DNA of 64,000 nucleotides, from positions 293,708 to 357,707 of the forward strand of contig CAVTMH010000003.1 of assembly GCA_963735785.1 (NCBI GenBank), in the 5' to 3' direction. Every line of letters starts with the position of its first letter. The stretch's first letter is position 1. The position numbers and the translations under genes are program-made. This document shows, piece after piece, positions 8,270 through 35,698 of the stretch. The notes beneath the pieces were generated by a model, which searched no databases, had not been told where the DNA came from, and saw only the letters and a list, made by a program, of their open reading frames with translations. The stretch is from an uncultured Chloroflexia bacterium. GTDB lineage: Bacteria; Chloroflexota; Limnocylindria; Limnocylindrales; CSP1-4.

Positions 8270-9301
8270 TACATGCCGGCAGCGCCGCTCCGCACGCTCG
8301 TGGCCGTCGTCGTCGCGGCTTTGATCATGGGGATCGTGCCGCCGGCGGCGAGCGCCGCGCAGTCGCCCGACGTCACCCCGCCGACCGGCTCGATCTCGAT
8401 CGCTGGCGGCGCCGCGTACACCCGGACGAGGTTCGTTACGGTCGCGACCCCCGCGACCGACGATAGCGGTCACGTGACCGAGATGGCCCTGTCGAACGAT
8501 GGGATCACGTGGACGACCGGGGGATACGGGCCGATGCGCCACTGGGCGCTGGAGGCCATCGACGGCACGCGGACCGTCCACGTGAAGTGGAAGGACGCCG
8601 CGGGCAATTGGTCGGCGGTCGAGACGGACACGATCGTGCTCGACACCGTGAAGCCGAGCGTGACGGTGCCACTCCGGGGCTTCGTGGCCGGCAGCGGGAT
8701 CGACGAGGGCCGGATCAGCGTCCGTGTCGCGTGGTCGGCGTCCGATGACCGGAGCGGGATCGCGCGGTACGAGCTCGAGCAGAGCACCGGCGGGGTCTGG
8801 GCGATGATCTCGACGACGCTGACGAACCCGGCGATCACCCGCCTCCTGGCCACGCAGCAGGACTATCAGTTCCGCGTCCGCGCCGTCGACGGGGCCGGCA
8901 ATACGAGTGTCGCGACAGGAAAGCCATTCCGCATCTCGCGGTACAGCGAACACAACAGCGCGATCCGCTACAGCGGCTCGTGGACGAACGACGCGAATCC
9001 GGCGTACTGGGGCGGCGCGGCGAGGCGGTCGAGCACTGCCGGTGCCCGCGCCTCACTGACCTTCACCGGGCGCCAGATCGCGTGGGTGGCGCGCACGGGT
9101 CCTGACCGGGGCAAGGCAGGGATCTTCGTCAACGGCACGCAGGTTGCCACGGTCGACCTGTATTCCCCCACGACGAGGGCCCAGCGGGTCGTATGGGTCG
9201 GCAGCTGGACGACCGCCGTCTCGCGCACGGTCACGATCCGGGTGGCCGGCACGAGTGGACGCCCACGCATCGATCTCGACGCGCTCGTGACGGCCAACTA
9301 G
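8270..9301 (+). CDS. secreted protein with two FN3/Ig-like domains and a C-terminal ~110-aa module of unknown function
   Basis: A signal peptide is present (MPAAPLRTLVAVVVAALIMGIVPPAASAAQ). FN3-like segments appear (…YQFRVRAVDGAGNTS). The C-terminal segment (TFTGRQIAWVARTGPDRGKAGIFVNGTQVATVDLYS…TVTIRVAGTSGRPRIDLDALV) is paralogous to the C-terminus of the 55718..56561 protein. Confidence 0.65.
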   Translation, partial: YMPAAPLRTLVAVVVAALIMGIVPPAASAAQSPDVTPPTGSISIAGGAAYTRTRFVTVATPATDDSGHVTEMALSNDGITWTTGGYGPMRHWALEAIDGTRTVHVKWKDAAGNWSAVETDTIVLDTVKPSVTVPLRGFVAGSGIDEGRISVRVAWSASDDRSGIARYELEQSTGGVWAMISTTLTNPAITRLLATQQDYQFRVRAVDGAGNTSVATGKPFRISRYSEHNSAIRYSGSWTNDANPAYWGGAARRSSTAGARASLTFTGRQIAWVARTGPDRGKAGIFVNGTQVATVDLYSPTTRAQRVVWVGSWTTAVSRTVTIRVAGTSGRPRIDLDALVTAN

Positions 9302-9658: not shown

Positions 9659-9666
9659 CCCGAGCC

Positions 9667-9696
9667 GAGCGGCCCGCCCATCCGGACGGGCCGCTC
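9667..9696 (+). terminator. GC-rich hairpin downstream of csp
   Basis: gagcggcccg-cccatccgga-cgggccgctc forms a 10-bp perfect stem. No U-tract follows, which is usual for Actinobacteria. Confidence 0.45.
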
Positions 9697-12539: not shown

Positions 12540-13922
12540 TCACGCGCCCGCTGCGGGCGGGATGTTCTGGTTCAGGCGGAACATGTTGGTCGGGTCGTAG
12601 CGCCGCTTGATCTCGGCGAGCCGGTCCCAGGTGCTCCCCGGATACGCCGCTCGGATGCGCGCCTCGCCCTCGTCCACCAGGAAGTTGACGTACGCGCCGC
12701 TGTCGCCCTGGTGCAGGGCGGCGGTGAACTCGGCCACCCAGGCCTCGCGGGTTGGCTTGTCGTCGGGCCCGTCGTAGAACGCGGCGACGTTCACCATGAT
12801 CCGGCTGGTCCGGTGCGCGTAGGCCGTGGCGTCGTCCGGCACCCGCGCCGCTTCTCCGCCGAGGACGCGCAATTGCGCCACCCGCATCGACGCATCCGAG
12901 GCAGCGAGGAACTCCATGATCGTCTCGGCGACGCGCCGATCGACGGTGTCGATGAACATGGTGCGTGCCACGGCGGTCGGGTGGTACGAGTCGTCATCCG
13001 GCGGGTACATGTCGGCGTACGGCTGGACCTGCAACATGTCGACGATGGGCTCGGCGATCGCGCGGAACGGGGCGAGCGCCCCCTGACCGGTCTCGGCCTC
13101 GCCGGCGTACGTCATCAGGGCCATGTTCACGAGCGTCCCGTGGTGCTCCTCCGGCACGAACGGCATGGGTGGGCAAGGCATGACGTTGGCGATCGTCGAC
13201 AACTCGTCGGGCGCCGCCTCGGCGGCCGCGATGAACGCGGAGATGGTGTCGGCCGTCGCGGGCAGGATCAGCATGCCGCCGATCGTCGACTCGAGTGGAT
13301 GGAGCCGGAACCGGAACCTCGTCGCGACGCCGAAGTTGCCGCCGCCGCCACGGATCGCCCAGAACAGGTCCGGATTGTGCTCGGTGTCGGCGCGCAGGAG
13401 CTCGCCATCGGCGGTCACGATATCGACCGCCAGGAGCGAATCGATCGTGAGTCCGTGCTTCCGCACGAGGTAGCCGACGCCGCCACCGAGCGTGATCCCG
13501 CCGAGCCCGACCGATCCCGTGTCGCCGAACCCCGTGGCGAGGCCGTGCGCGCCCGCCGCGGTCGTGTACTCCGCGGCAGTCAGGCCTGCCTCGGCCCACG
13601 CCGTCCGCCCATCGACATCGATCTCGATACCCTTCATGTCCCGAAGGTCGAGCACGATCCCACCCTCGGTCACGCTGTGGCCAGCGCCGCTGTGCCCGCC
13701 GCTGCGAACCGCGAGCTGGAGGCCGGTGTCGCGGGCCATGCCGACCACGTACCGGACGTCGGCCACGTCGGCAACGCGCACGATGACGGCGGGCCGGCGG
13801 TCGATGCCGCCGGCGACGACGGTCCGCGCATCGTCGTAGCCCGGATCATCGGGCCCGATCACGCGGCCCTGGACTCCGGCGCGGATCGCGGGGATGGACA
13901 GGGTGGCGGTGCGGGTCGTCAC
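12540..13922 (-). CDS. FAD-binding (PCMH-type, BBE-like) oxidoreductase
   Basis: The translation contains RSGGHSGAGHSV…GGGVGYLVRKHGLTIDSLLAVDIVTADGEL…RGGGGNFGVAT. Confidence 0.85.
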   Translation of the reverse strand: MTTRTATLSIPAIRAGVQGRVIGPDDPGYDDARTVVAGGIDRRPAVIVRVADVADVRYVVGMARDTGLQLAVRSGGHSGAGHSVTEGGIVLDLRDMKGIEIDVDGRTAWAEAGLTAAEYTTAAGAHGLATGFGDTGSVGLGGITLGGGVGYLVRKHGLTIDSLLAVDIVTADGELLRADTEHNPDLFWAIRGGGGNFGVATRFRFRLHPLESTIGGMLILPATADTISAFIAAAEAAPDELSTIANVMPCPPMPFVPEEHHGTLVNMALMTYAGEAETGQGALAPFRAIAEPIVDMLQVQPYADMYPPDDDSYHPTAVARTMFIDTVDRRVAETIMEFLAASDASMRVAQLRVLGGEAARVPDDATAYAHRTSRIMVNVAAFYDGPDDKPTREAWVAEFTAALHQGDSGAYVNFLVDEGEARIRAAYPGSTWDRLAEIKRRYDPTNMFRLNQNIPPAAGA

Positions 13923-13971: not shown

Positions 13972-14355
13972 TCAGGCCGGTGCTTCGTCCAGCACGGCCA
14001 TGATGTTGCCCGATGGATCGGTGAACCAGGCGATCGTCGGACCGTTGCCGCGGCTGATGCCCTTGTCGTCCTGCCCGAAGTCCGGTCCGTAATGCTCCAT
14101 CCGAACCCCGGCCGCCGTGATCCGATCGACCGCGGCGTCGACGTCTTTCACCGGGAAGTTCAGGATCGTGTAGTTCGCCGGCTGGTGGTCGTCCTTCGGA
14201 TAGACGAGGACGACCGCGCCGCTCCCGAGGTGCAGCTCGAGCATGCCCATCGGGCCGTCTCGCGCGTCCAGTCCGAGCGTCTCGCCATAGAAGGATCTCG
14301 CAGCGTCGATGTCCTTCACTGCGAAACCCGAGAATGCCTTGCTGTCCTTGAACAC
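13972..14355 (-). CDS. VOC/glyoxalase family protein
   Basis: The translation contains [29 protein letters not shown]…[22 protein letters not shown]. Confidence 0.8.
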
Positions 14356-27671: not shown

Positions 27672-27877
27672 GGCTGATTCCTCCTCGAAACCGATGCATG
27701 CAGCTGCCGGGGGTAGGGCCGCTGGGAATCTGCCAAACACGGGGATTCCTCGCAACCCCGGTTCTATCGAAAGACGATTGTGTTTTCTGAATCCTCCGTT
27801 GACCACCCGGAGCGTACTCGACCCGTCCGCCTCAAGGCGTCAGCGCGCGAATCGGCACTCGCTGGTTGGTCGCGGTC

Positions 27878-27891
27878 GGCACGATCGTGCC
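27878..27891. promoter_or_regulatory. perfect 14-bp palindrome GGCACGATCGTGCC, about 75 bp upstream of the PAC2 gene
   Basis: The palindrome is seen directly. It is flanked by an imperfect outer inverted repeat (ggttggtc…gccaacc). It lies in the 295-bp divergent intergenic region between the NEW3 operon and the PAC2 gene. Confidence 0.35.
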
Positions 27892-27965
27892 ATGGCCAAC
27901 CGCTCCGCGCCGGCGGTGACCCGGGACCCACGGGTGCGCATCCGGGCCCCGCGTATCCTTGGGCC

Positions 27966-28835
27966 GTGAGCTTGTATGTGCTGAGCGGGCCCGGTGGGCC
28001 GGGCGATCCGGGCGACCTCATCGCGCCGACGATGGTCGGCGCGTTCGACGGTTGGGTCGATGCCGGCAGCGCCGCCACGACGGCCCTCGGTCAGCTCGTC
28101 GACGATGCGCCGGTCGTCGCGACGTTCGACGCCGACTCGCTCTTCGACTACCGCGCACGCCGCCCGACCCTGCAGATCGTGGACGGGCGACTGGCTGAGC
28201 TGACCTGGCCGGAGCTCGTCCTTCGGCGCCTGCGGGTCGCGGAGCGGGACCTGCTGGTGCTGGCCGGCCCCGAGCCCGACGATCGCTGGCAGGCATTCGG
28301 GACCGCGGTCGTCGAGATCGCCCACCGTCTGGGTGTCGTGGAGTGGGTCAGCCTCGGGGCGATCCCGGCAGCCGTGCCGCATACCCGTTCCGTGCCGATC
28401 CTGGGCACCACCTCGGAACCCGGCCGCCTGCGCGGCGACGTCCGACCGGGACCGGCCGGCTTGTTGCGTGTCCCGGCCGCGGCGGTCAGCGTGCTCGAGA
28501 TGGCCATGGTCGAAGGCGGCATCCCTGCCGTCGGGTACTTCGCCCAGGTGCCCCACTACATCTCGGGGCCGTACCCGGCGGCGTCGGTCGAGCTGCTCGT
28601 CGCCCTGGGGCGTCATCTCGGCGTGGAGCTGCCGCCCGGCGACCTGGCGGACGAGGCGCGCCAGCTGCGCACGCGTCTCGACACGGCGACCGCGCTCGAA
28701 GACACGACGAGGGAGTACATCGAGCGCCTGGAGAGCATGGTCGACGAGGAACGCCTGCCATCGGGCGATGACCTGATCGGGGAGATCGAGCGCTTCCTGC
28801 GCGAGGGCGGCACCGAAGGACGTCCGCAAAGCTGA
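27966..28835 (+). CDS. PAC2 (proteasome assembly chaperone 2-like, Rv2125-type) family protein
   Basis: The start is a GTG (VSLYVLSG…). The translation contains APTMVGAFDGWVDAGSAATTALGQL… and ends EIERFLREGG. Confidence 0.75.
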   Translation: MSLYVLSGPGGPGDPGDLIAPTMVGAFDGWVDAGSAATTALGQLVDDAPVVATFDADSLFDYRARRPTLQIVDGRLAELTWPELVLRRLRVAERDLLVLAGPEPDDRWQAFGTAVVEIAHRLGVVEWVSLGAIPAAVPHTRSVPILGTTSEPGRLRGDVRPGPAGLLRVPAAAVSVLEMAMVEGGIPAVGYFAQVPHYISGPYPAASVELLVALGRHLGVELPPGDLADEARQLRTRLDTATALEDTTREYIERLESMVDEERLPSGDDLIGEIERFLREGGTEGRPQS

Positions 28836-28873
28836 ACTCAGGTCGAACATGACAGGTCCTGTCATGTTCATGC

Positions 28874-29884
28874 GTGTACCCTCGCTCTGTGCGCGCATCA
28901 CGCCTCGTGAACCTGCTCCTCCTGCTCCAGAGCCGAGGCGGCATGACCGCCGCGGAGCTCGCGCGCGAGCTCGAGGTATCCATCCGCACCGTCCATCGCG
29001 ACGTCGAGGAGCTGAGTGCAGCCGGGGTCCCGATCTTCGCGGAGCGCGGTCCGCTCGGCGGCATCAGGCTGGTGGACGGTTACCGGACACGACTGACCGG
29101 CATGACCGCCGACGAGGCCGAGGCACTGTTCCTGGCCGGCCTGCCGGGCCCCGCGGCGCAACTGGGACTCGGCACGGTCGTCGCAGCCGCGCAGCTCAAG
29201 GTGATGGCGGCGCTGCCTCCGGAGCTGCGATCGCGCGCGTCGCGGCTCGTCGAGCAATTCCATCTCGACGTCGCGGGGTGGTTCCACACGGACGAGGCCG
29301 TCCCCCACCTCGCCACATTGTCCGCGGCGGTGTGGGATGGGCGACTGATCCGGATCTCCTACGAACGTGGCACCGGTGGCGGGCCGGTGGACCGCACGGT
29401 CGGGCCGCTGGGACTCGTGCTCAAGGGCGGCATGTGGTACGTGATCGGGGAGGCGGAGGGTCAGATCCGCACCTATCGCGCTTCGCGTGTGCTGGAGGTG
29501 TCGCTGCTCGAGGACCGGGTCGCGCGACCCGACGGCTTCGATCTCGCCGCGTACTGGGCCGAATCGAGCGCGGCCTACGAGCGCGACGTCCCGACCGTCC
29601 AGGTCGTCGTCCGCACGCCCGAGGATCGAGCCTGGCGCATCGCCGATGTGTTCGGCAGGGCGACGCTGGATGCGGCTCAACGGTTGGACGAACCCGATCG
29701 CGACGGCTGGATCCGCCTCCGATTGACGCTGGGCTGGCCCGAGGAAGTGCCGGGCAAGCTGCTCTCGGTCGGGTCGAGCCTGGAGGTGCTCCATCCGCCC
29801 GAGGTTCGCGACCGCGTGAGCGCGACGGCCGGTCGGATCGCCGAGCGCTACCGCGAGGAGGTACCGCTCGACGCCGGTCGCTGA
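28874..29884 (+). CDS. HTH plus WYL-domain transcriptional regulator (YafY/PafBC-like)
   Basis: The translation contains RLVNLLLLLQSRGGMTAAELARELEVSIRTVHRDVEEL and a WYL region (GMWYVIGEAEGQIRTYRASRV). Confidence 0.85.
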   Translation: MYPRSVRASRLVNLLLLLQSRGGMTAAELARELEVSIRTVHRDVEELSAAGVPIFAERGPLGGIRLVDGYRTRLTGMTADEAEALFLAGLPGPAAQLGLGTVVAAAQLKVMAALPPELRSRASRLVEQFHLDVAGWFHTDEAVPHLATLSAAVWDGRLIRISYERGTGGGPVDRTVGPLGLVLKGGMWYVIGEAEGQIRTYRASRVLEVSLLEDRVARPDGFDLAAYWAESSAAYERDVPTVQVVVRTPEDRAWRIADVFGRATLDAAQRLDEPDRDGWIRLRLTLGWPEEVPGKLLSVGSSLEVLHPPEVRDRVSATAGRIAERYREEVPLDAGR

Positions 29885-30966: not shown

Positions 30967-31944
30967 CTAGCCCGCCGACGCGATCCGCGGCACCCCGGAA
31001 CGCGCGACCTTCGCCTCGAAGCGCGTGGCCGCCGCGTCCAACGAGGCGAGGTGTTCGGCGAGCCGCCGGCGTGCTTCCTCGGCGGCCGCGTCCAGCCCCT
31101 CGAGCTCGAAGATGCGCCAGTGGCGCAGGATCGGCAGGAGGACCTCGTCGTGGTGGACACGCAGGTCGTAGATCCCGGCCTTGGCGATCTGGGCGGCCTT
31201 GCGGATGAAGCCCGGGATGCCGGCGCCCGGCATCTCGAATGCCAGCACCTCGTCGACGATGGCCCGCACGGCCGCCGACGGCTGGACCTTCAGGGCGGCC
31301 GCGAGGATGTCCCGGTAGAAGACCATGTGCAGGTTCTCGTCCGCCGCGATGCGGATCATGATCTTGTCGGCGACGGGATCGTCCGAGTAGCGGCCCGTGT
31401 TGCGATGTGCGATGCGCGTCGCGAGCTCCTGGAAGGCGACGTAGGCCAGGCCGCGCAGGGTCGTCGGGGAGTCGTGGTCGTAGCCCTGCTGGAGCTGGGT
31501 CATCCGCCCGCGCTCGAGCAGGATCGGGTCGATGTTGCGGGTGACCGTGAGGTAGTCGCGCAGGACGATCGCGTGCCGCCCCTCCTCGGCCGTCCAGCGC
31601 CCGACCCAGTTGATCCAGGCGCCGTCGCCCCGACCGAACATGCCGTGGATGAGCCGGTGGTACGAGGGCAGGTTGTCCTCGGTCAGGAGGCCGATCTCGA
31701 ACGCCGTCTGGGCGACGCCGGTCAGGCGCGGCTGGTCGGGCGTCCAGGGCTCCTTGTCGAAGTCGCGCCCGAGTCGGTACGGGATGTAGTCGTGGGGGAA
31801 CCACTCCTGGGCGACCCTGGCGTGGCGGTCATACAGGCGGCCGGCCTCCGGTTCCAGCTCCACGAGCAGGGCCTGATCCATGGCGAGCGCCTCGGCGGCA
31901 TCGAACTCCTCGCCGGGCTCGAGCCGGCGCGCTGTGTCGGTCAT
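30967..31944 (-). CDS. acyl-ACP desaturase (soluble di-iron desaturase, DesA-like)
   Basis: The translation contains WTAEEGRHAIVLRDYL…ELATRIAHRNTG…DENLHMVFYRD, the di-iron EXXH motifs. Confidence 0.85.
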   Translation of the reverse strand: MTDTARRLEPGEEFDAAEALAMDQALLVELEPEAGRLYDRHARVAQEWFPHDYIPYRLGRDFDKEPWTPDQPRLTGVAQTAFEIGLLTEDNLPSYHRLIHGMFGRGDGAWINWVGRWTAEEGRHAIVLRDYLTVTRNIDPILLERGRMTQLQQGYDHDSPTTLRGLAYVAFQELATRIAHRNTGRYSDDPVADKIMIRIAADENLHMVFYRDILAAALKVQPSAAVRAIVDEVLAFEMPGAGIPGFIRKAAQIAKAGIYDLRVHHDEVLLPILRHWRIFELEGLDAAAEEARRRLAEHLASLDAAATRFEAKVARSGVPRIASAG

Positions 31945-32080
31945 GCGGTCTCCTGGTCGACGTTGCTCGGCCAGTGCCAGGCTCGAAGCGACGATGTCGC
32001 CCAAGCGTAGCCGGGATCGATCAAAGCGCCGCGAGACACGTGCGCACCTGCACGGGTCGTGGGGCGCTAGACTCCGGCGC

Positions 32081-32867
32081 GATGCCCCCTCCGCGCCACG
32101 TGACCGCCACCCGCTATGTCACGCCCCTGCGCGAGGGCGGCTCGCTCCCGGGTCTCGTCGAGGCCGACGACGACGGCCTGTACGTCGTGAAGTTCCGGGG
32201 CGCCGGCCAGGGTCCGCGGGCGCTCGTCGCGGAGTGGCTCGCCGGCGAGATCGGCCGGGCGCTCGGGCTGCCGGTGCCGGAGATCGTGACGGTCGAGGTC
32301 GACGGCAGCCTTGGTGACGCGGAACCCGACGAGGAGCTCCAGGACCTCGTCCATCGCAGCGACGGCCTGAACCTCGGACTCGATTTCCTGCCCGGCGCCC
32401 TGACGTTCAACCCGGGCGCCTCGCCGCAGGTCGATCCCGAGGCCGCCGCGGCGGTCGTCTGGCTCGACGCGTTCACGACCAATCCCGACCGGACGGCGGG
32501 CAACCCGAACCTGCTGATCTGGCACGGCCGAACCTGGTTGATCGACCACGGCGCGGCGCTCTACGTCCACCACACCTGGCGCGACCCCGACACGCACGCG
32601 GAGCGGCCGTTCGAGCGCAGCCGGGACCATGTGCTGCTGCCCTTCGCGGGACCCATCGACGAGGCCGACGAGCGCGTGGCGCAGGCGCTCGATCGTGGGC
32701 TGTTCGAGCGGCTGGTCGGCGCGATCCCCGATCAGTGGCTGCCCGACGACGCGATCGCCGGGGACGCCGACGCCCAGCGGGCGGCATATGTGCGCTACCT
32801 GGAGCGACGGCTCGCCCGACGGCGACCATTCGTGGAGGAGGCCGAGCGTGCCCGACGAGCCGCGTAG
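32081..32867 (+). CDS. HipA-like serine/threonine kinase catalytic-domain protein (short; lacks the HipA N-terminal domains)
   Basis: The translation contains …LYVVKFRGAGQGPRALVAEWLAGEIGRALGLPVPEI… with a catalytic-loop-like FTTNPDRTAGNPNLLIWHGRTWLIDHGAAL (NxDRxxxN, IDHG). Confidence 0.6.
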
Positions 32868-33237
32868 CCCCTATCAGTACGCGATTATCCGCGTCGTCCC
32901 GCGCGTGGACCGCGGTGAATGCCTCAACGTCGGGGTCGTGCTGCTGTGCCGCCCGACACCGTTCATCGGGGCGCGCACGGAGCTCAACGAGCAGCGGCTG
33001 GCAGCCCTCGCGCCCAACACGGACCCGGCAACCGTTCGACCGCACCTGGTCGCGATCGAACGAGTCGCGCGAGGCGACCCGGAGGGCGGACCGATCGCGG
33101 GGCTCACGATGCCCGAGCGGTTCCATTGGCTGGTGTCGCCGGCCAGCACCATCATCCAGCCGTCCCCGGTCCACACCGGGCTGACCGACGATCCGGCCGC
33201 CGAACTCGAGCACCTGTTCGAGACGTTGGTGCGCTAG
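32848..33237 (+). CDS. DUF3037 domain protein
   Basis: The GTG start is 7 nt after GGAGGAGG and lies inside the last 20 bp of the kinase gene. The translation contains YQYAIIRVVPRVDRGECLNVGVVLLC. Confidence 0.75.
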   Translation: MPDEPRSPYQYAIIRVVPRVDRGECLNVGVVLLCRPTPFIGARTELNEQRLAALAPNTDPATVRPHLVAIERVARGDPEGGPIAGLTMPERFHWLVSPASTIIQPSPVHTGLTDDPAAELEHLFETLVR

Positions 33238-33803
33238 ACCTCGAGCCGCGCCTGGATCGCGCGGAGCGCCTCTGCGAGCGTGCCGCTGCCGGACGTGCAC
33301 GCCGCCGCCACCAGGATCTCCATCTCGGAGCCGGGCACGCCCGTGAGCACGGATACGCATGCCATGCGAACCCGCTCGGCGAGGACGCTGGCTTCGTTCG
33401 ACAGGGTCTCCGGAAGCAACAGGTGGAACCGGTCCGGCGCGACGCGGGCCACGCGGTCGGTCTCGCGTGCCTGCCCTCGGATGGCGACGCCGATCCGCGA
33501 TGCATACCGGTCGATGGCGCCGGAGCCGACAGTCATCAGGCGGACGGCCATCACGGCCGCCGGGCGGCCGTAGCGAGCCACGCGCGCGTCCTCGAGTCGG
33601 AGCGCGATCTCCCAGTCATTCCGCGTGTCCAGGGGCGGGACGCGGCGCGCCGGACGGAGGCCCTCGGCGCGAAGGTGACGTGCGCGACGGCCACGCCGAG
33701 CTCGGACGGACGGGCCCTGGAGGAATGCTTCGATGTGCTCGCCGACCCGTTCGTCATGGGGATCGTCGGGCAGGACGAAGCGGGGGCGTCGCGCCGGTCG
33801 GGC
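33234..33803 (-). CDS. hypothetical protein (possibly a degenerate GGDEF-like fold); start unresolved
   Basis: A protein-like segment reads …RVAPDRFHLLLPETLSNEASVLAERVRMACVSVLTG…. The upstream part of the ORF running to 34127 is Arg/Pro/Ser junk. Confidence 0.3.
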   Translation of the reverse strand, partial: ARPARRPRFVLPDDPHDERVGEHIEAFLQGPSVRARRGRRARHLRAEGLRPARRVPPLDTRNDWEIALRLEDARVARYGRPAAVMAVRLMTVGSGAIDRYASRIGVAIRGQARETDRVARVAPDRFHLLLPETLSNEASVLAERVRMACVSVLTGVPGSEMEILVAAACTSGSGTLAEALRAIQARLEV

Positions 33804-33909
33804 GTTCGGGCGATCGGGCGGCGGCGAGCCTGCGGGAAATTCGGACACGGTCGGCCAGTCTAGCCGGGTCGGCCGGTTCAGGCCGACGGGCGCCGATGCA
33901 GGGTCCGGA

Positions 33910-35457
33910 TCAGACGCTGACGGCGAGTGATGGACGGCTGGACCGGGTCGCCGGCGTGTAGGCCGCCCATGCCGCGGCCAGCCGCTCGACCCCGTCGACC
34001 AGCCGGTCGGGCTCCGAGCCGTAGGCGATCCGGATGTGATCGCGGAAGCCGCCGTCCGGCGAGGCGAGCGGTCCCGGTCGCACCACCACCCCGAGTGTCG
34101 CGGCCAGGCGGCTGAATGCGACCGCATCCGCCCCCGGCAACCGGACCCAGAGCGAGAGACCGCCCCTCGGCTCCTTCCACGTCCAGTCCGGCAGCCGCTC
34201 CGCCAGTGCCGCCATCAACACGCGGCGCCGCTCGGCACCGGCCCCCCGGCTCCGTGCTGCGACCTCGTCGAGCCGTTCGAACACGCGCGCCCCGATCGCC
34301 TGCGTGATCAGGCTCGACGAATGGTCCGCGACGATCTTGCCCGCAACGAGGCGGTCGATGACGGCGCGCGGCGCCCGGACCCAACCGACCCGCAGACCAC
34401 CCCAGGCGAGCTTGCTCAGGGAGCCCACGGTGATGACCCGATCGCCGGGATCGAAGGCGGCGATCGGTGGCGGGCTGTCGACACCGAGCGTGAGGTCGGG
34501 GGTGAGATCTTCGACGACCAGGAAGTCCGCTTCCCCGGCCATTCGGGCAAGCTCACGTCGTCGGGTCTCGGGCATGACGGCGCCGGTCGGGTTCTGGAAC
34601 GTGGGGATCACGTAGATGAGACGGACCGGTGTGCTCGTCCCGAGGAGGCCGATCACGTCGACCCGTCCTCCATCGTCGTCGACAGGGATCGGGATGAGCC
34701 GGTTGCCGGTCGTGCGGAAGGCGTCGATGGCCCCGATGTAGCTGGGGTTCTCCATGACGACGGACGTCCCGGGTCCACCGAGCTGCGAACCGATGAGGTG
34801 GAGCGCCTGCTGGGCCCCGCTCGTGACCAGGATCTGGTCCGCATCCGTCGGCACGCCGAGGCGCGCGAGATAGCCGGCGATGCGATCGCGCAGGGCCGGC
34901 AGGCCGAACGGGTCGTAGCCGGTGTCGCGCAGCAGTGCCGGCAGGTCGTCACGCACGGCCTCGGCCATCGCGTCCGCCACGATCGATCCTGCGGGGAGTG
35001 CGCCGATGGTCAGCTCGATGGCGTCGTCGAGGAGCGGGGTCAGCAGCCCGACAGCGGGGGCGGCCGTGGCCGTCGGCATGAGGACGGCGTCCGAATCCGT
35101 GGCGTCCAGCGGCGCGAGATAGGCCTGTGTCAGGCCGGGCCGTCGGGCGGCCACCCGCGTGCCGCTGCCCTGGCGGCTGCGAGCGAGACCGGCAAGGCGG
35201 AGGCGGTCGTAGGCGGCAACGATCGTCGTGCGGCTCAGGGCGAGCTCGCGGGCGAGCTCGCGCTCCGCGGGCAGGCGGGTCCCGGGTGGGAGCAGACCCA
35301 GATCGATCGCGCGGGCGAGGGCCTCTGCCAGCTGCTCGTTCAGCGGGTCGGCCCCATCCGCCCACGGGCCGATGAGGTCCACGAGGCTGGCCGCGGAGAC
35401 TGTCGATTGCCTTTTCAGTCCACTTGAGGTGGATTGGCTATTGGACTGGTCTGTCAT
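33910..35457 (-). CDS. MocR-family (GntR HTH plus class-I aminotransferase-like) transcriptional regulator
   Basis: The HTH reads LARELALSRTTIVAAYDRL. The PLP-enzyme-like domain contains …SLSKLAWGGLRVGWVRAPRA…. The start is taken as the ATG at 35457. The ORF-track start at 35544 is an alternative. Confidence 0.8.
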   Translation of the reverse strand: MTDQSNSQSTSSGLKRQSTVSAASLVDLIGPWADGADPLNEQLAEALARAIDLGLLPPGTRLPAERELARELALSRTTIVAAYDRLRLAGLARSRQGSGTRVAARRPGLTQAYLAPLDATDSDAVLMPTATAAPAVGLLTPLLDDAIELTIGALPAGSIVADAMAEAVRDDLPALLRDTGYDPFGLPALRDRIAGYLARLGVPTDADQILVTSGAQQALHLIGSQLGGPGTSVVMENPSYIGAIDAFRTTGNRLIPIPVDDDGGRVDVIGLLGTSTPVRLIYVIPTFQNPTGAVMPETRRRELARMAGEADFLVVEDLTPDLTLGVDSPPPIAAFDPGDRVITVGSLSKLAWGGLRVGWVRAPRAVIDRLVAGKIVADHSSSLITQAIGARVFERLDEVAARSRGAGAERRRVLMAALAERLPDWTWKEPRGGLSLWVRLPGADAVAFSRLAATLGVVVRPGPLASPDGGFRDHIRIAYGSEPDRLVDGVERLAAAWAAYTPATRSSRPSLAVSV

Positions 35458-35542: not shown

Positions 35543-35698
35543 ATGATGCTCGATCAGGTCGTGGCCGCCGTCGCTGTGGCCGCTTTGTTCATCGCGATGC
35601 TCGTGGCTTTTGCGGTCGCGGCGCTCCGCTTCGGCGTCGACTCCCGTCCCGGCATCGACGATCCGGATCGGCGTCCCTGGCTCGTACCGAGCCGCTGA
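35543..35698 (+). CDS. 51-aa hydrophobic (single transmembrane) peptide, divergent from the MocR regulator
   Basis: The peptide is MMLDQVVAAVAVAALFIAMLVAFAVAALRFGVDSRPGIDDPDRRPWLVPSR. A GGAAAGGA Shine-Dalgarno-like sequence sits 11 nt upstream. A terminator hairpin follows directly. It is absent from the ORF track because it is under 60 aa. Confidence 0.45.
   Translation: MMLDQVVAAVAVAALFIAMLVAFAVAALRFGVDSRPGIDDPDRRPWLVPSR

What the first reader, a model, noticed from the sequence alone, without database searches (positions are those of the whole stretch)
32081..33237. Short HipA-like kinase-domain protein overlapped by a DUF3037 gene: a conserved two-gene module of unknown function
The 262-aa kinase lacks HipA N-terminal domains. 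It has a catalytic-loop-like NPDRTAGNPN and an IDHG motif. The DUF3037 gene starts 7 nt after a strong GGAGGAGG Shine-Dalgarno, inside the last 20 bp of the kinase gene. This indicates translational coupling. From memory, DUF3037 proteins are commonly adjacent to HipA-like kinases, but I cannot verify that here. Minimal HipA-type kinases paired with a small partner resemble HipT/HipS-type toxin-antitoxin logic. The role of DUF3037 is not established. The pair sits divergent from an acyl-ACP desaturase gene. The intergenic region has overlapping palindromes cacgtg and gtgcgcac.
Basis: partly seen in the sequence, partly recalled or inferred. Interest (0 to 1): 0.7.

Follow-up and report, generated by a model that had tools for sequence, protein, structure and literature searches.

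The report
HipA-like kinase with DUF3037 partner
This is a real, tightly coupled two-gene unit (a small HipA-like protein kinase plus a DUF3037 protein) of a family recently shown in E. coli to act as a toxin-antitoxin-type anti-phage system. Here it is a compact, chromosomally inherited copy in an uncultured soil Chloroflexota lineage, so it is a new member of a known kind rather than a new kind.

Summary
The kinase is 32082-32867 (261 aa, Pfam HipA_2). DUF3037 is 32848-33237 (129 aa, GTG start). They overlap by 20 nt, behind a GGAGGAGG ribosome-binding site.

Both proteins match PADLOC candidate system PDC-M66 (A and B). Published experiments on this family (Retron-Sda1 operon; DS-6/HipAD) show a toxic kinase, neutralisation by the DUF3037 protein, and kinase-dependent phage defence. 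"Function unknown" is therefore out of date.

The host is Chloroflexota (Limnocylindrales-like), not Actinobacteria. Pairing was complete in both directions: 80/80 DUF3037-seeded and 62/62 kinase-seeded loci.

- **Expression:** the kinase looks leaderless (TANNNT 12-16 nt before the start in 52/78 loci; ribosome-binding site in 3/78). DUF3037 has a conserved strong site.
- **Partner:** only the DUF3037 domain is present. Its confident model (pLDDT 96) has no solved relative, and HipS-likeness is not supported.
- **Context:** the locus is syntenic and vertically inherited, not a defence island. It was deleted as a unit in 2 of 10 neighbour-seeded relatives, one with a clear scar.

Verdict: new member of a known kind, of moderate-low interest.

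The parts
32068..32073 (+). -10-like hexamer TAGACT. It ends 8 nt before the kinase ATG and implies a leaderless or nearly leaderless mRNA.
   Evidence: A TANNNT hexamer starts 12-16 nt before the kinase start in 52 of 78 related loci. It occurs at most once at almost every other upstream position. An SD-like sequence precedes the kinase start in only 3 of 78 loci. The sigma-70 consensus scan found nothing, so this rests on comparative evidence only.
32082..32867 (+). HipA_2-family Ser/Thr-type kinase gene (261 aa), the predicted toxin or effector. It matches PADLOC PDC-M66A.
   Evidence: Pfam PF20613, E = 9e-24. PADLOC PDC-M66A, E = 5e-23. The AF2 model has pLDDT 74.5. Foldseek PDB top hits are H. 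pylori CtkA (E = 2.5e-4), then HipA 4pu4 and PI3K/PI4K. Invariant across phyla: K37, E51, D136, N143, D155.
32481..32510 (+). Catalytic loop NPDRTAGNPN (residues 134-143; D136 and N143 are invariant).
   Evidence: Read from the sequence. N134, D136, R137 and N143 are invariant in six members from four phyla and in 30 close homologues.
32541..32552 (+). IDHG, the DFG-equivalent metal-binding motif (D155).
   Evidence: D155 and H156 are invariant.
32834..32841 (+). Shine-Dalgarno GGAGGAGG for the DUF3037 gene. It lies inside the kinase codons for V-E-E-A.
   Evidence: Read from the sequence. A GAGGAGG-type motif 5-8 nt before a GTG/ATG start is conserved in most of the 80 loci.
32848..33237 (+). 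DUF3037 gene (129 aa, GTG start), the predicted neutralising partner or antitoxin. It matches only the N-terminal half of PDC-M66B.
   Evidence: Pfam PF11236, E = 2e-43, model positions 1-118 of 118. PADLOC PDC-M66B, E = 1.6e-9, profile positions 4-128 of 281. The AF2 model has pLDDT 96. There is no solved relative.
32848..32867 (+). 20-nt overlap of the two genes (translational coupling).
   Evidence: An overlap of 8-26 nt is seen in roughly 65 of 80 related loci.
32041..32052 (.). Conserved motif TGCGCACCTGCA in the divergent spacer. It is probably a desaturase-linked regulatory element and not part of the pair.
   Evidence: The motif TG[CT]G-N3/4-CTGCA is present in 12 of 13 loci with the divergent desaturase and in 0 of 68 loci without it. 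It is retained at both sites where the pair is deleted.
30967..31944 (-). Divergent neighbour: acyl-ACP-type fatty-acid desaturase. Context only.
   Evidence: PF03405, E = 7e-58. ATG 31944 is preceded by AGGAGA.
33234..34127 (-). Convergent neighbour: a weakly GGDEF-like protein. This is the maximal ORF; homologues are 130-226 aa. Its stop codon shares the CTAG at 33234-33237 with the DUF3037 stop. Context only.
   Evidence: PF00990, E = 2e-4, below the curated cut-off. The gene is syntenic in close relatives.

Best explanation
The two genes form one self-contained kinase/neutraliser module of the HipA_2-DUF3037 family (PADLOC PDC-M66; DS-6/HipAD type).

**Proposed mechanism**
- The operon is transcribed from a -10-like TAGACT just upstream of the kinase ATG. 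The kinase is therefore translated from a leaderless message without a ribosome-binding site.
- The DUF3037 gene is translated from a strong internal GGAGGAGG that overlaps the kinase's last codons. The partner is thus made whenever the kinase is made, and probably in excess.
- The 261-aa kinase has a complete protein-kinase-like catalytic set (K37, E51, D136, N143, D155).
- By homology with tested relatives it is growth-inhibitory when free. It is held inactive by direct binding of the DUF3037 protein.
- Loss of that inhibition, for example during phage infection, would release the kinase to phosphorylate a host or phage target and arrest growth (abortive infection).

**Features of this copy**
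- The partner is the DUF3037 domain alone, with no C-terminal DUF1829 or DNA-binding extension. Neutralisation would then reside in the DUF3037 domain, and autoregulation through partner-DNA binding is unlikely.
- In this lineage the module is a long-term chromosomal resident. It is inherited vertically but is dispensable, and it is lost only as a whole unit.

**Shown here:** gene structure, family membership, intact catalytic residues, obligate pairing, conserved coupling signals, vertical inheritance, and whole-module deletions.

**Inferred:** toxicity, neutralisation by binding, the excess of partner, leaderless transcription, the phage-defence role, and the trigger and target (both unknown).
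For: **Family membership**
- HipA_2 and DUF3037 by Pfam.
- PDC-M66A and PDC-M66B by PADLOC.

**Kinase**
- Kinase fold nearest to CtkA, HipA and PI3/4-kinases.
- Catalytic residues invariant across four phyla.

**Obligate pairing**
- A kinase lies immediately upstream on the same strand in 80/80 DUF3037-seeded genome loci.
- DUF3037 lies directly downstream in 62/62 kinase-seeded metagenome loci with enough flank.

**Expression signals**
- The overlap and GAGGAGG are conserved.
- TANNNT sits at -16 to -12 in 52/78 loci, and an SD precedes the kinase in only 3/78.

**Published experiments on homologues**
- In the Retron-Sda1 operon, deleting the HipA-like kinase abolishes defence against phage Bas51, and deleting DUF3037 is toxic (PMC12548924).
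- In DS-6/HipAD, mutating a key predicted catalytic residue of the kinase abolishes defence. AlphaFold3 predicts an A-B complex with ipTM 0.76-0.79 (PMC13092281).

**Dispensability, with loss as a unit**
- 2 of 10 neighbour-seeded syntenic loci lack both genes.
- L166 keeps the promoter, the ATG, about 11 kinase codons and the last 19 DUF3037 codons.
- L173 keeps only promoter remnants.

**Mobile context elsewhere:** a short-partner pair flanked by transposases on a Hymenobacter plasmid is the best PDC-M66 match.
Against: - No experiment exists for this short-partner, Chloroflexota/Actinomycetota subfamily.
- The two tested systems whose partner architecture is described in the papers read have longer partners: DUF3037+DUF1829, or DUF3037 with a DNA-binding-like C-terminus.
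- The locus is not in a defence island. Only generic WYL and helicase domain hits occur nearby.
- The subfamily is absent from 50,697 phage genomes and from IMG/VR. It occurs on only 11 of 72,556 plasmid records, mostly very large replicons.
- Both proteins evolve about as slowly as their housekeeping neighbours and track them. Kinase identity correlates with PAC2 identity at rho 0.85, with mean identities of about 70% for both. This is unusual for defence or toxin-antitoxin genes.
- The -10 element and leaderless start rest on comparative evidence only. The consensus promoter scan found nothing.
Confidence: 0.65

Rival explanations
1. Domesticated housekeeping switch. In Limnocylindria and Thermoleophilia-type lineages the pair is a regulatory kinase with a regulatory subunit. 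It controls a core process such as translation or dormancy. It is neither a poison/antidote pair nor a phage-defence system.
For: - The neighbourhood is syntenic across many Limnocylindrales-like genomes: PAC2, WYL regulator, DUF4112, desaturase | pair | GGDEF-like, MocR, HhH-GPD, DEAD helicase.
- Other lineage-specific metabolic contexts are conserved in Solirubrobacterales.
- Sequence identity tracks and equals that of the neighbours.
- The top 120 database homologues of each protein are 73-92% identical and nearly all of constant length.
- There are no phage or virus copies.
- No mobile or defence genes lie nearby.
Against: - Two independent clean deletions of both genes occur in close relatives. 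Their desaturase is 89-94% identical. The pair is therefore dispensable.
- Tested homologues are toxic without the partner and defend against phage (PMC12548924, PMC13092281).
- The same minimal pair sits in unrelated contexts in Parabacteroides, in a Streptomyces PKS cluster, and between transposases on a Hymenobacter plasmid. This behaviour is typical of a self-contained module.
Confidence: 0.2
2. Split-HipA logic. DUF3037 is a divergent equivalent of HipS (HipA N-subdomain 1). It neutralises the kinase the way HipS neutralises HipT.
For: - The kinase lacks any N-subdomain, and its Gly-rich loop is at the N-terminus.
- Kinase-first operons with downstream HipS-like antitoxins are described for HipJ (PMC8262856).
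Against: - Foldseek finds no HipS or HipA chain in the top 50; the best E-value is 0.26.
- Pfam reports only DUF3037 and no Couple_hipA domain.
- Profile searches of PDB sequences find nothing relevant.
Confidence: 0.1
3. DUF3037 is not a passive inhibitor. It is an enzyme or a ligand/phage-cue sensor that reverses or gates the kinase's action.
For: - Within the close subfamily many polar residues are (nearly) invariant: R15, R22, E24, N27, R91, Q104, H109.
- The fold has no solved relative.
- There is no DNA-binding domain.
Against: - Across distant family members only Y11, E24, N27, G29 and L123 stay invariant. R22, R91 and H109 are replaced. This does not look like a conserved catalytic set.
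- AlphaFold3 predicts direct A-B binding for DS-6 (PMC13092281).
Confidence: 0.05

Closest known systems
DS-6 / HipAD (E. coli; DefensePredictor, PMC13092281; Brenes & Laub 2025, cited there)
   Same: - A HipA-related kinase is followed by a DUF3037-containing protein.
- The kinase catalytic residue is needed for phage defence.
- A toxin-antitoxin-like model was proposed, with a predicted A-B complex.
   Different: - DS-6B carries DUF3037 plus DUF1829 and is predicted to touch DNA. Here the partner is the DUF3037 domain alone (129 aa).
- HipAD is reported to have been found in a study of E. coli prophage-encoded defence systems (Brenes & Laub 2025, known to me only through its title as cited). 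This copy sits in a syntenic chromosomal slot of Chloroflexota.
PADLOC candidate system PDC-M66, including the HipA-like/DUF3037 pair in the Retron-Sda1 operon (PMC12548924)
   Same: - Both window proteins hit the two PDC-M66 models.
- Gene order and orientation are the same.
- In the Sda1 operon, kinase deletion loses defence and DUF3037 deletion is toxic.
   Different: - The window proteins are distant members (A 5e-23, B 1.6e-9). A Hymenobacter plasmid pair scores 1e-107 and 3e-48.
- The B match covers only profile positions 4-128 of 281.
- The Sda1 partner has a DNA-binding-like C-terminus and a retron neighbour. Neither is present here.
HipBST (HipT kinase, HipS antitoxin, HipB)
   Same: The kinase lacks HipA N-subdomain 1, and a small protein partner is the presumed neutraliser.
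   Different: - The kinase belongs to a different Pfam family (HipA_2, not HipA_C) and is shorter (261 aa against 291-346 aa for HipT, PMC8262856).
- The partner lies downstream, not upstream.
- The partner's fold is not demonstrably HipS-like.
- There is no HipB.
Canonical HipBA
   Same: A protein-kinase-like toxin fold, with HipA 4pu4 among the structural matches. It is also a two-gene module.
   Different: - No HipA_C or HipA_N domains are detected.
- No HTH antitoxin is present.
- The gene order is reversed.
- The target is unknown here, whereas HipA targets GltX.
Helicobacter pylori CtkA (PDB 3akl/3akk)
   Same: It is the best structural match of the kinase model (Foldseek E = 2.5e-4, TM about 0.5). 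It is also a compact HipA-like Ser/Thr kinase.
   Different: - Sequence identity is 12-13%.
- From my own knowledge, CtkA is a secreted effector with no DUF3037 partner.
- The match rests on a medium-confidence model (pLDDT 74.5).

Membership tests
HipA_2-DUF3037 two-gene system (PADLOC PDC-M66; DS-6/HipAD type) | First protein is a HipA_2 / PDC-M66A-type kinase | tested here: met
   PF20613, E = 9e-24. PDC-M66A, E = 5e-23, covering profile positions 12-245 of 270.
HipA_2-DUF3037 two-gene system (PADLOC PDC-M66; DS-6/HipAD type) | Second protein contains a DUF3037 domain (PDC-M66B) | tested here: met
   PF11236, E = 2e-43, full model. PDC-M66B, E = 1.6e-9.
HipA_2-DUF3037 two-gene system (PADLOC PDC-M66; DS-6/HipAD type) | C-terminal extension of the partner (DUF1829 or DNA-binding-like; about 150 aa), as in the tested systems | tested here: not met
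   The partner ends at residue 129 and covers only PDC-M66B profile positions 4-128 of 281. Short partners do occur inside PDC-M66, for example on the Hymenobacter plasmid at 133 aa with E = 3e-48. The extension is therefore not universal in the family.
HipA_2-DUF3037 two-gene system (PADLOC PDC-M66; DS-6/HipAD type) | Kinase gene directly followed by the DUF3037 gene on the same strand | tested here: met
   Window. 80/80 and 62/62 related loci.
HipA_2-DUF3037 two-gene system (PADLOC PDC-M66; DS-6/HipAD type) | Intact kinase catalytic residues | tested here: met
   K37, E51, D136, N143 and D155 are invariant.
HipA_2-DUF3037 two-gene system (PADLOC PDC-M66; DS-6/HipAD type) | Kinase is toxic alone and neutralised by the partner; the pair protects against phage | not testable with these tools
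   Known only from experiments on homologues (PMC12548924, PMC13092281).
Canonical HipBA | HipA_C (and HipA_N / Couple_hipA) domains in the kinase | tested here: not met
   Only HipA_2 is reported at E <= 0.01. No PDB HipA is found by sequence or by profile.
Canonical HipBA | Upstream HTH antitoxin HipB in the same operon | tested here: not met
   The upstream gene is a divergent desaturase. No HTH protein lies in the operon.
HipBST | Kinase lacking N-subdomain 1 | tested here: met
   The protein is 261 aa, and the Gly-rich REGGSLPG loop is at residues 17-24.
HipBST | Small partner with the HipS (Couple_hipA) fold | tested here: inconclusive
Generic type II toxin-antitoxin module | Antitoxin with a DNA-binding domain that autoregulates the operon | tested here: not met
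   No domain other than DUF3037 is detected. The fold has no DNA-binding relative.
Generic type II toxin-antitoxin module | Patchy, mobile distribution | tested here: inconclusive
   Inheritance is vertical and syntenic. Whole-module deletions occur in 2 of 10 syntenic loci. One distant member sits between transposases.

The most novel reading that the evidence does not exclude
In Limnocylindria and Thermoleophilia-type bacteria the minimal HipA_2-DUF3037 pair is not mobile phage defence. It is a long-resident, chromosomally fixed kinase switch for growth arrest or dormancy. Its partner has a fold with no solved relative and no DNA-binding domain, and it controls the kinase by a mechanism different from both HipB and HipS.
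Probability: 0.15. Interest if true: 0.6.

Novelty: new member of a known kind. Interest (0 to 1): 0.3.

Why it matters
- It extends a family whose defence role has so far been tested in E. coli (DS-6/HipAD; Retron-Sda1 operon) to abundant uncultured soil phyla.
- A 129-aa DUF3037 domain alone is the constant partner of the kinase. This points to DUF3037, rather than the C-terminal extensions of the tested systems, as the neutralising module.
- The compact pair (261 + 129 aa) would be a convenient subject for solving the first structure of a HipA_2-DUF3037 complex and for finding the kinase's target.
- Vertical inheritance combined with recurrent whole-module deletion is a clean natural example of how such modules persist and are lost.
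- None of this changes the current picture of the family.

Tried and rejected
- **DUF3037 as an enzyme.** The subfamily-invariant Arg and His residues are not conserved family-wide.
The conserved motif co-occurs with the desaturase (12/13 against 0/68 loci) and survives where the pair is deleted.
- **Defence-island context.** Only generic WYL and helicase domain hits occur nearby.
- **Phage or plasmid carriage of this subfamily.** None in phages or IMG/VR, and rare on plasmids.
- **Long DUF3037 relatives among near homologues.** These are fusions or read-throughs with unrelated enzymes (PNPOx, NMO, Fic), not DUF1829 forms.
- **Sequence-level search for solved structures.** Nothing was found with single sequences or with profiles.
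- **Consensus promoter and terminator scan.** Nothing was found.
- **NCBIfam.** No model matched.
- **Broad DUF3037 alignment for the genome scan.** It was too diverse to give a search pattern, so a narrower alignment was used.
- **Literature.** A text search for "HipAD" returned only unrelated papers. The Brenes & Laub paper itself is not held.
- **Single-base frameshifts in the kinase of L172 and L175.** These may be real toxin decay or long-read assembly errors. Left undecided.
Full report
**1. Observation**

The region holds two overlapping forward-strand genes.
- Gene A runs from ATG 32082 to the TAG at 32865-32867 and encodes 261 aa.
- A database gene call uses GTG 32040 (275 aa). Most homologues are 261 aa and begin with MP.
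- Gene B starts at GTG 32848 and ends at the TAG at 33235-33237 (129 aa). It overlaps gene A by 20 nt.
- GGAGGAGG lies at 32834-32841, 6 nt upstream of the gene B start.
- NPDRTAGNPN (residues 134-143) and IDHG (residues 154-157) are present.
- The divergent upstream gene is a desaturase (PF03405).
- The palindromes cacgtg and gtgcgcac are at 32037-32047.

**2. Identity of the two proteins**

*Gene A, the kinase*
- It matches only Pfam HipA_2 (E = 9e-24), and it matches PADLOC PDC-M66A at 5e-23.
- No solved structure is related at sequence or profile level.
- An AlphaFold2 model (pLDDT 74.5, weakest around the catalytic and activation segment) is closest to H. pylori CtkA (Foldseek E = 2.5e-4). 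HipA and PI3/PI4-kinases follow.
- In six members from Chloroflexota, Actinomycetota, Bacteroidota and Pseudomonadota, K37, E51, D136, N143 and D155 are invariant. The protein is therefore predicted to be an active kinase.

*Gene B, the DUF3037 protein*
- It matches Pfam DUF3037 over the whole model (E = 2e-43), and it matches PADLOC PDC-M66B at 1.6e-9.
- The PDC-M66B match covers only profile positions 4-128 of 281.
- No solved structure is related at sequence or profile level.

**3. Organism and conservation**

- Near-identical database entries and the closest named relatives are Candidatus Limnocylindrales / Chloroflexota MAGs. The host is not Actinobacteria.
- The 120 best database homologues of each protein are 73-92% identical. 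Nearly all have the same length.
- The DUF3037 family has 1,797 clusters at 50% identity with E <= 1e-3. Most near relatives are stand-alone proteins of 126-137 aa.
- The few long near relatives are fusions or read-throughs with unrelated enzymes.

**4. Pairing**

- A genome scan seeded with DUF3037 hit at least 596 species. The best 80 loci come from Limnocylindrales-like genomes, Ktedonobacterales, Solirubrobacterales, Gaiellales, Thermoleophilia and Acidimicrobiia.
- All 80 have a HipA_2 gene immediately upstream on the same strand.
- In a metagenome scan seeded with the kinase, all 62 loci with at least 400 nt of downstream flank have DUF3037 directly downstream.
- RefSeq annotates the same minimal overlapping pair as "HipA family kinase" plus "DUF3037 domain-containing protein" in Parabacteroides and Streptomyces.

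**5. Expression signals**

- The overlap (8-26 nt) and a GAGGAGG-type site before a GTG/ATG start recur in roughly 65 of the 80 loci.
- High-G+C codon choice for the conserved V-E-E-A peptide contributes to that conservation.
- Upstream of the kinase start, an SD-like sequence occurs in only 3 of 78 loci.
- A TANNNT hexamer starts 12-16 nt before the start codon in 52 of 78 loci and is essentially absent elsewhere upstream.
- In the window this hexamer is TAGACT at 32068-32073.
- I infer a leaderless kinase message and an SD-driven, coupled partner. This would favour an excess of partner over kinase. It is not shown directly, and the consensus promoter scan was empty.

**6. Genomic context**

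- The neighbours are an ABC transporter, a PAC2-family protein, an HTH-WYL-WCX regulator, DUF4112, the desaturase, then the pair. After the pair come a weakly GGDEF-like protein, a MocR-type regulator, an HhH-GPD protein and a DEAD-box helicase.
- PADLOC finds only generic domain hits there.
- This order is kept in many Limnocylindrales-like genomes.
- Identity of the pair to the window tracks that of the neighbours. Kinase identity against PAC2 identity gives rho 0.85, with means near 70% for both. This indicates vertical inheritance.
- Solirubrobacterales show their own conserved metabolic contexts.
- The subfamily is absent from phage genomes and IMG/VR and rare on plasmids.
- A distant short-partner pair lies between transposases on a Hymenobacter plasmid and is the best PDC-M66 match.
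- Alphaproteobacterial members have the long partner of 281-284 aa.

**7. Is the pair indispensable?**

I seeded on the neighbouring HhH-GPD protein and fetched 11 syntenic loci. One was cut short, leaving ten informative loci.
- Eight carry the pair.
- Two lack it exactly at the slot between the GGDEF-like gene and the desaturase.
- L166 keeps the TGCG..CTGCA motif, the TAGACT hexamer, the ATG and about 11 kinase codons. These are fused out of frame to the last 19 codons of DUF3037.
- L173 keeps only promoter remnants next to the CTAG.
- The two deletion junctions differ, so these are independent losses of the whole module.
- Two further loci (L172, L175) show a single-base insertion in the kinase while DUF3037 and the neighbours are intact. 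This is either decay of the toxin gene or an assembly error.

**8. Literature**

- PMC12548924 reports that DUF3037 is strongly associated with HipA-like kinases and that PADLOC calls the pair PDC-M66.
- In the Retron-Sda1 operon of that paper, deleting the kinase abolishes defence against phage Bas51. Deleting DUF3037 is toxic, and the retron parts are not needed.
- PMC13092281 (DefensePredictor) validates DS-6, renamed HipAD and credited to Brenes & Laub 2025. DS-6A is a HipA-related kinase, and DS-6B is DUF3037+DUF1829.
- In DS-6, mutating a key predicted catalytic residue of DS-6A abolishes defence. AlphaFold3 predicts A-B binding and weaker B-DNA binding.
- The Hip kinase survey of Gerdes et al. 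(PMC8262856) does not mention DUF3037; it was not among the papers returned by the full-text search for that term.

**9. Most likely mechanism**

- The pair is a self-contained kinase/neutraliser module. A free kinase arrests growth by phosphorylating an unknown target.
- DUF3037 binds and silences the kinase, and the expression design keeps the partner in excess.
- Infection or another insult that removes the partner releases the kinase.
- Membership, catalytic integrity, obligate pairing, coupling signals, vertical inheritance and whole-unit loss are shown here.
- Toxicity, binding, the trigger, the target and the defence role in this organism are inferred from homologues.
- Because the partner is the DUF3037 domain alone, neutralisation would reside in that domain, and partner-mediated DNA binding is unlikely here.

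**10. Rivals**

- A domesticated housekeeping switch fits the slow, vertical evolution and the non-mobile context. It is weakened by the independent deletions and by the homologues' toxicity.
- An enzymatic or sensor partner is unlikely, because the polar residues conserved in the subfamily are not conserved family-wide.

**11. Verdict**

- The module is already known as a kind (PDC-M66 / DS-6 / HipAD). This locus is a new, compact, chromosomally resident member from an uncultured lineage.
- Interest is moderate-low (0.3).
- The open points are the partner's unsolved fold, the neutralisation mode and the kinase target.

Noticed in passing
window 31517-31584 (+): Rfam ASdes (RF01781, 52.9 bits, E = 1.4e-9) matches antisense to the desaturase coding region. 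This Rfam family is described as a TB sRNA. The hit may simply reflect conservation of the desaturase coding sequence.
   Followed up: no
window 32041-32052: The conserved motif TGCGCACCTGCA (TG[CT]G-N3/4-CTGCA) is found in 12/13 loci with the divergent desaturase and in 0/68 loci without it. It is kept at both sites where the kinase pair is deleted. It is probably a desaturase regulatory element.
   Followed up: partly
L018, about 55-80 nt upstream of the kinase start at 9229; also L016, L021, L024, L027, L034, L036, L041, L042, L046, L047, L074: A sister subgroup has a conserved inverted repeat, TAGTTGC-N4/5-GCAACTA. It lies between a divergent F420H2-dependent quinone-reductase-like gene and the kinase gene. 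It is a candidate operator whose regulator is unknown.
   Followed up: no
window 33234-33237: The convergent DUF3037 gene (+) and GGDEF-like gene (-) end on the same palindromic CTAG. Their stop codons overlap and no terminator lies between them.
   Followed up: no
L166 13116-13215; L173 about 13140-13200: Two independent natural deletions of the whole kinase/DUF3037 module occur in close relatives. One leaves the promoter, about 11 kinase codons and the last 19 DUF3037 codons.
   Followed up: yes
L172 about 14154-14156; L175 about 9664-9673: Single-base insertions interrupt the kinase gene while DUF3037 and the neighbours are intact. This is either possible toxin-gene decay or a long-read assembly error.
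   Followed up: partly
proteins P0341, P0339, P0352: DUF3037 appears fused to a Fic/DOC domain, to pyridoxamine-phosphate oxidase, or to nitronate monooxygenase. There is one representative of each. They may be real fusions or gene-call read-throughs.
   Followed up: no
L162 3240-4381 (Streptomyces sp. 2P-4 linear plasmid): The same minimal pair sits inside a polyketide cluster. It lies between a PPTase and a crotonyl-CoA carboxylase/reductase, next to a predicted elfamycin efflux pump.
   Followed up: no
window 35543-35698 (+): A conserved 51-aa hydrophobic small ORF (MMLDQVVAAVAVAALFIAML...GVDSRPGIDDPDRRPWLVPSR) lies between the MocR-type and HhH-GPD genes. It is called in nearly all syntenic loci.
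   Followed up: partly
window 27780-29884 (+): A PAC2-family protein is followed by an HTH-WYL-WCX (PafBC-like) regulator. This pairing is reminiscent of actinobacterial proteasome-accessory loci, here in a Chloroflexota genome.
   Followed up: no
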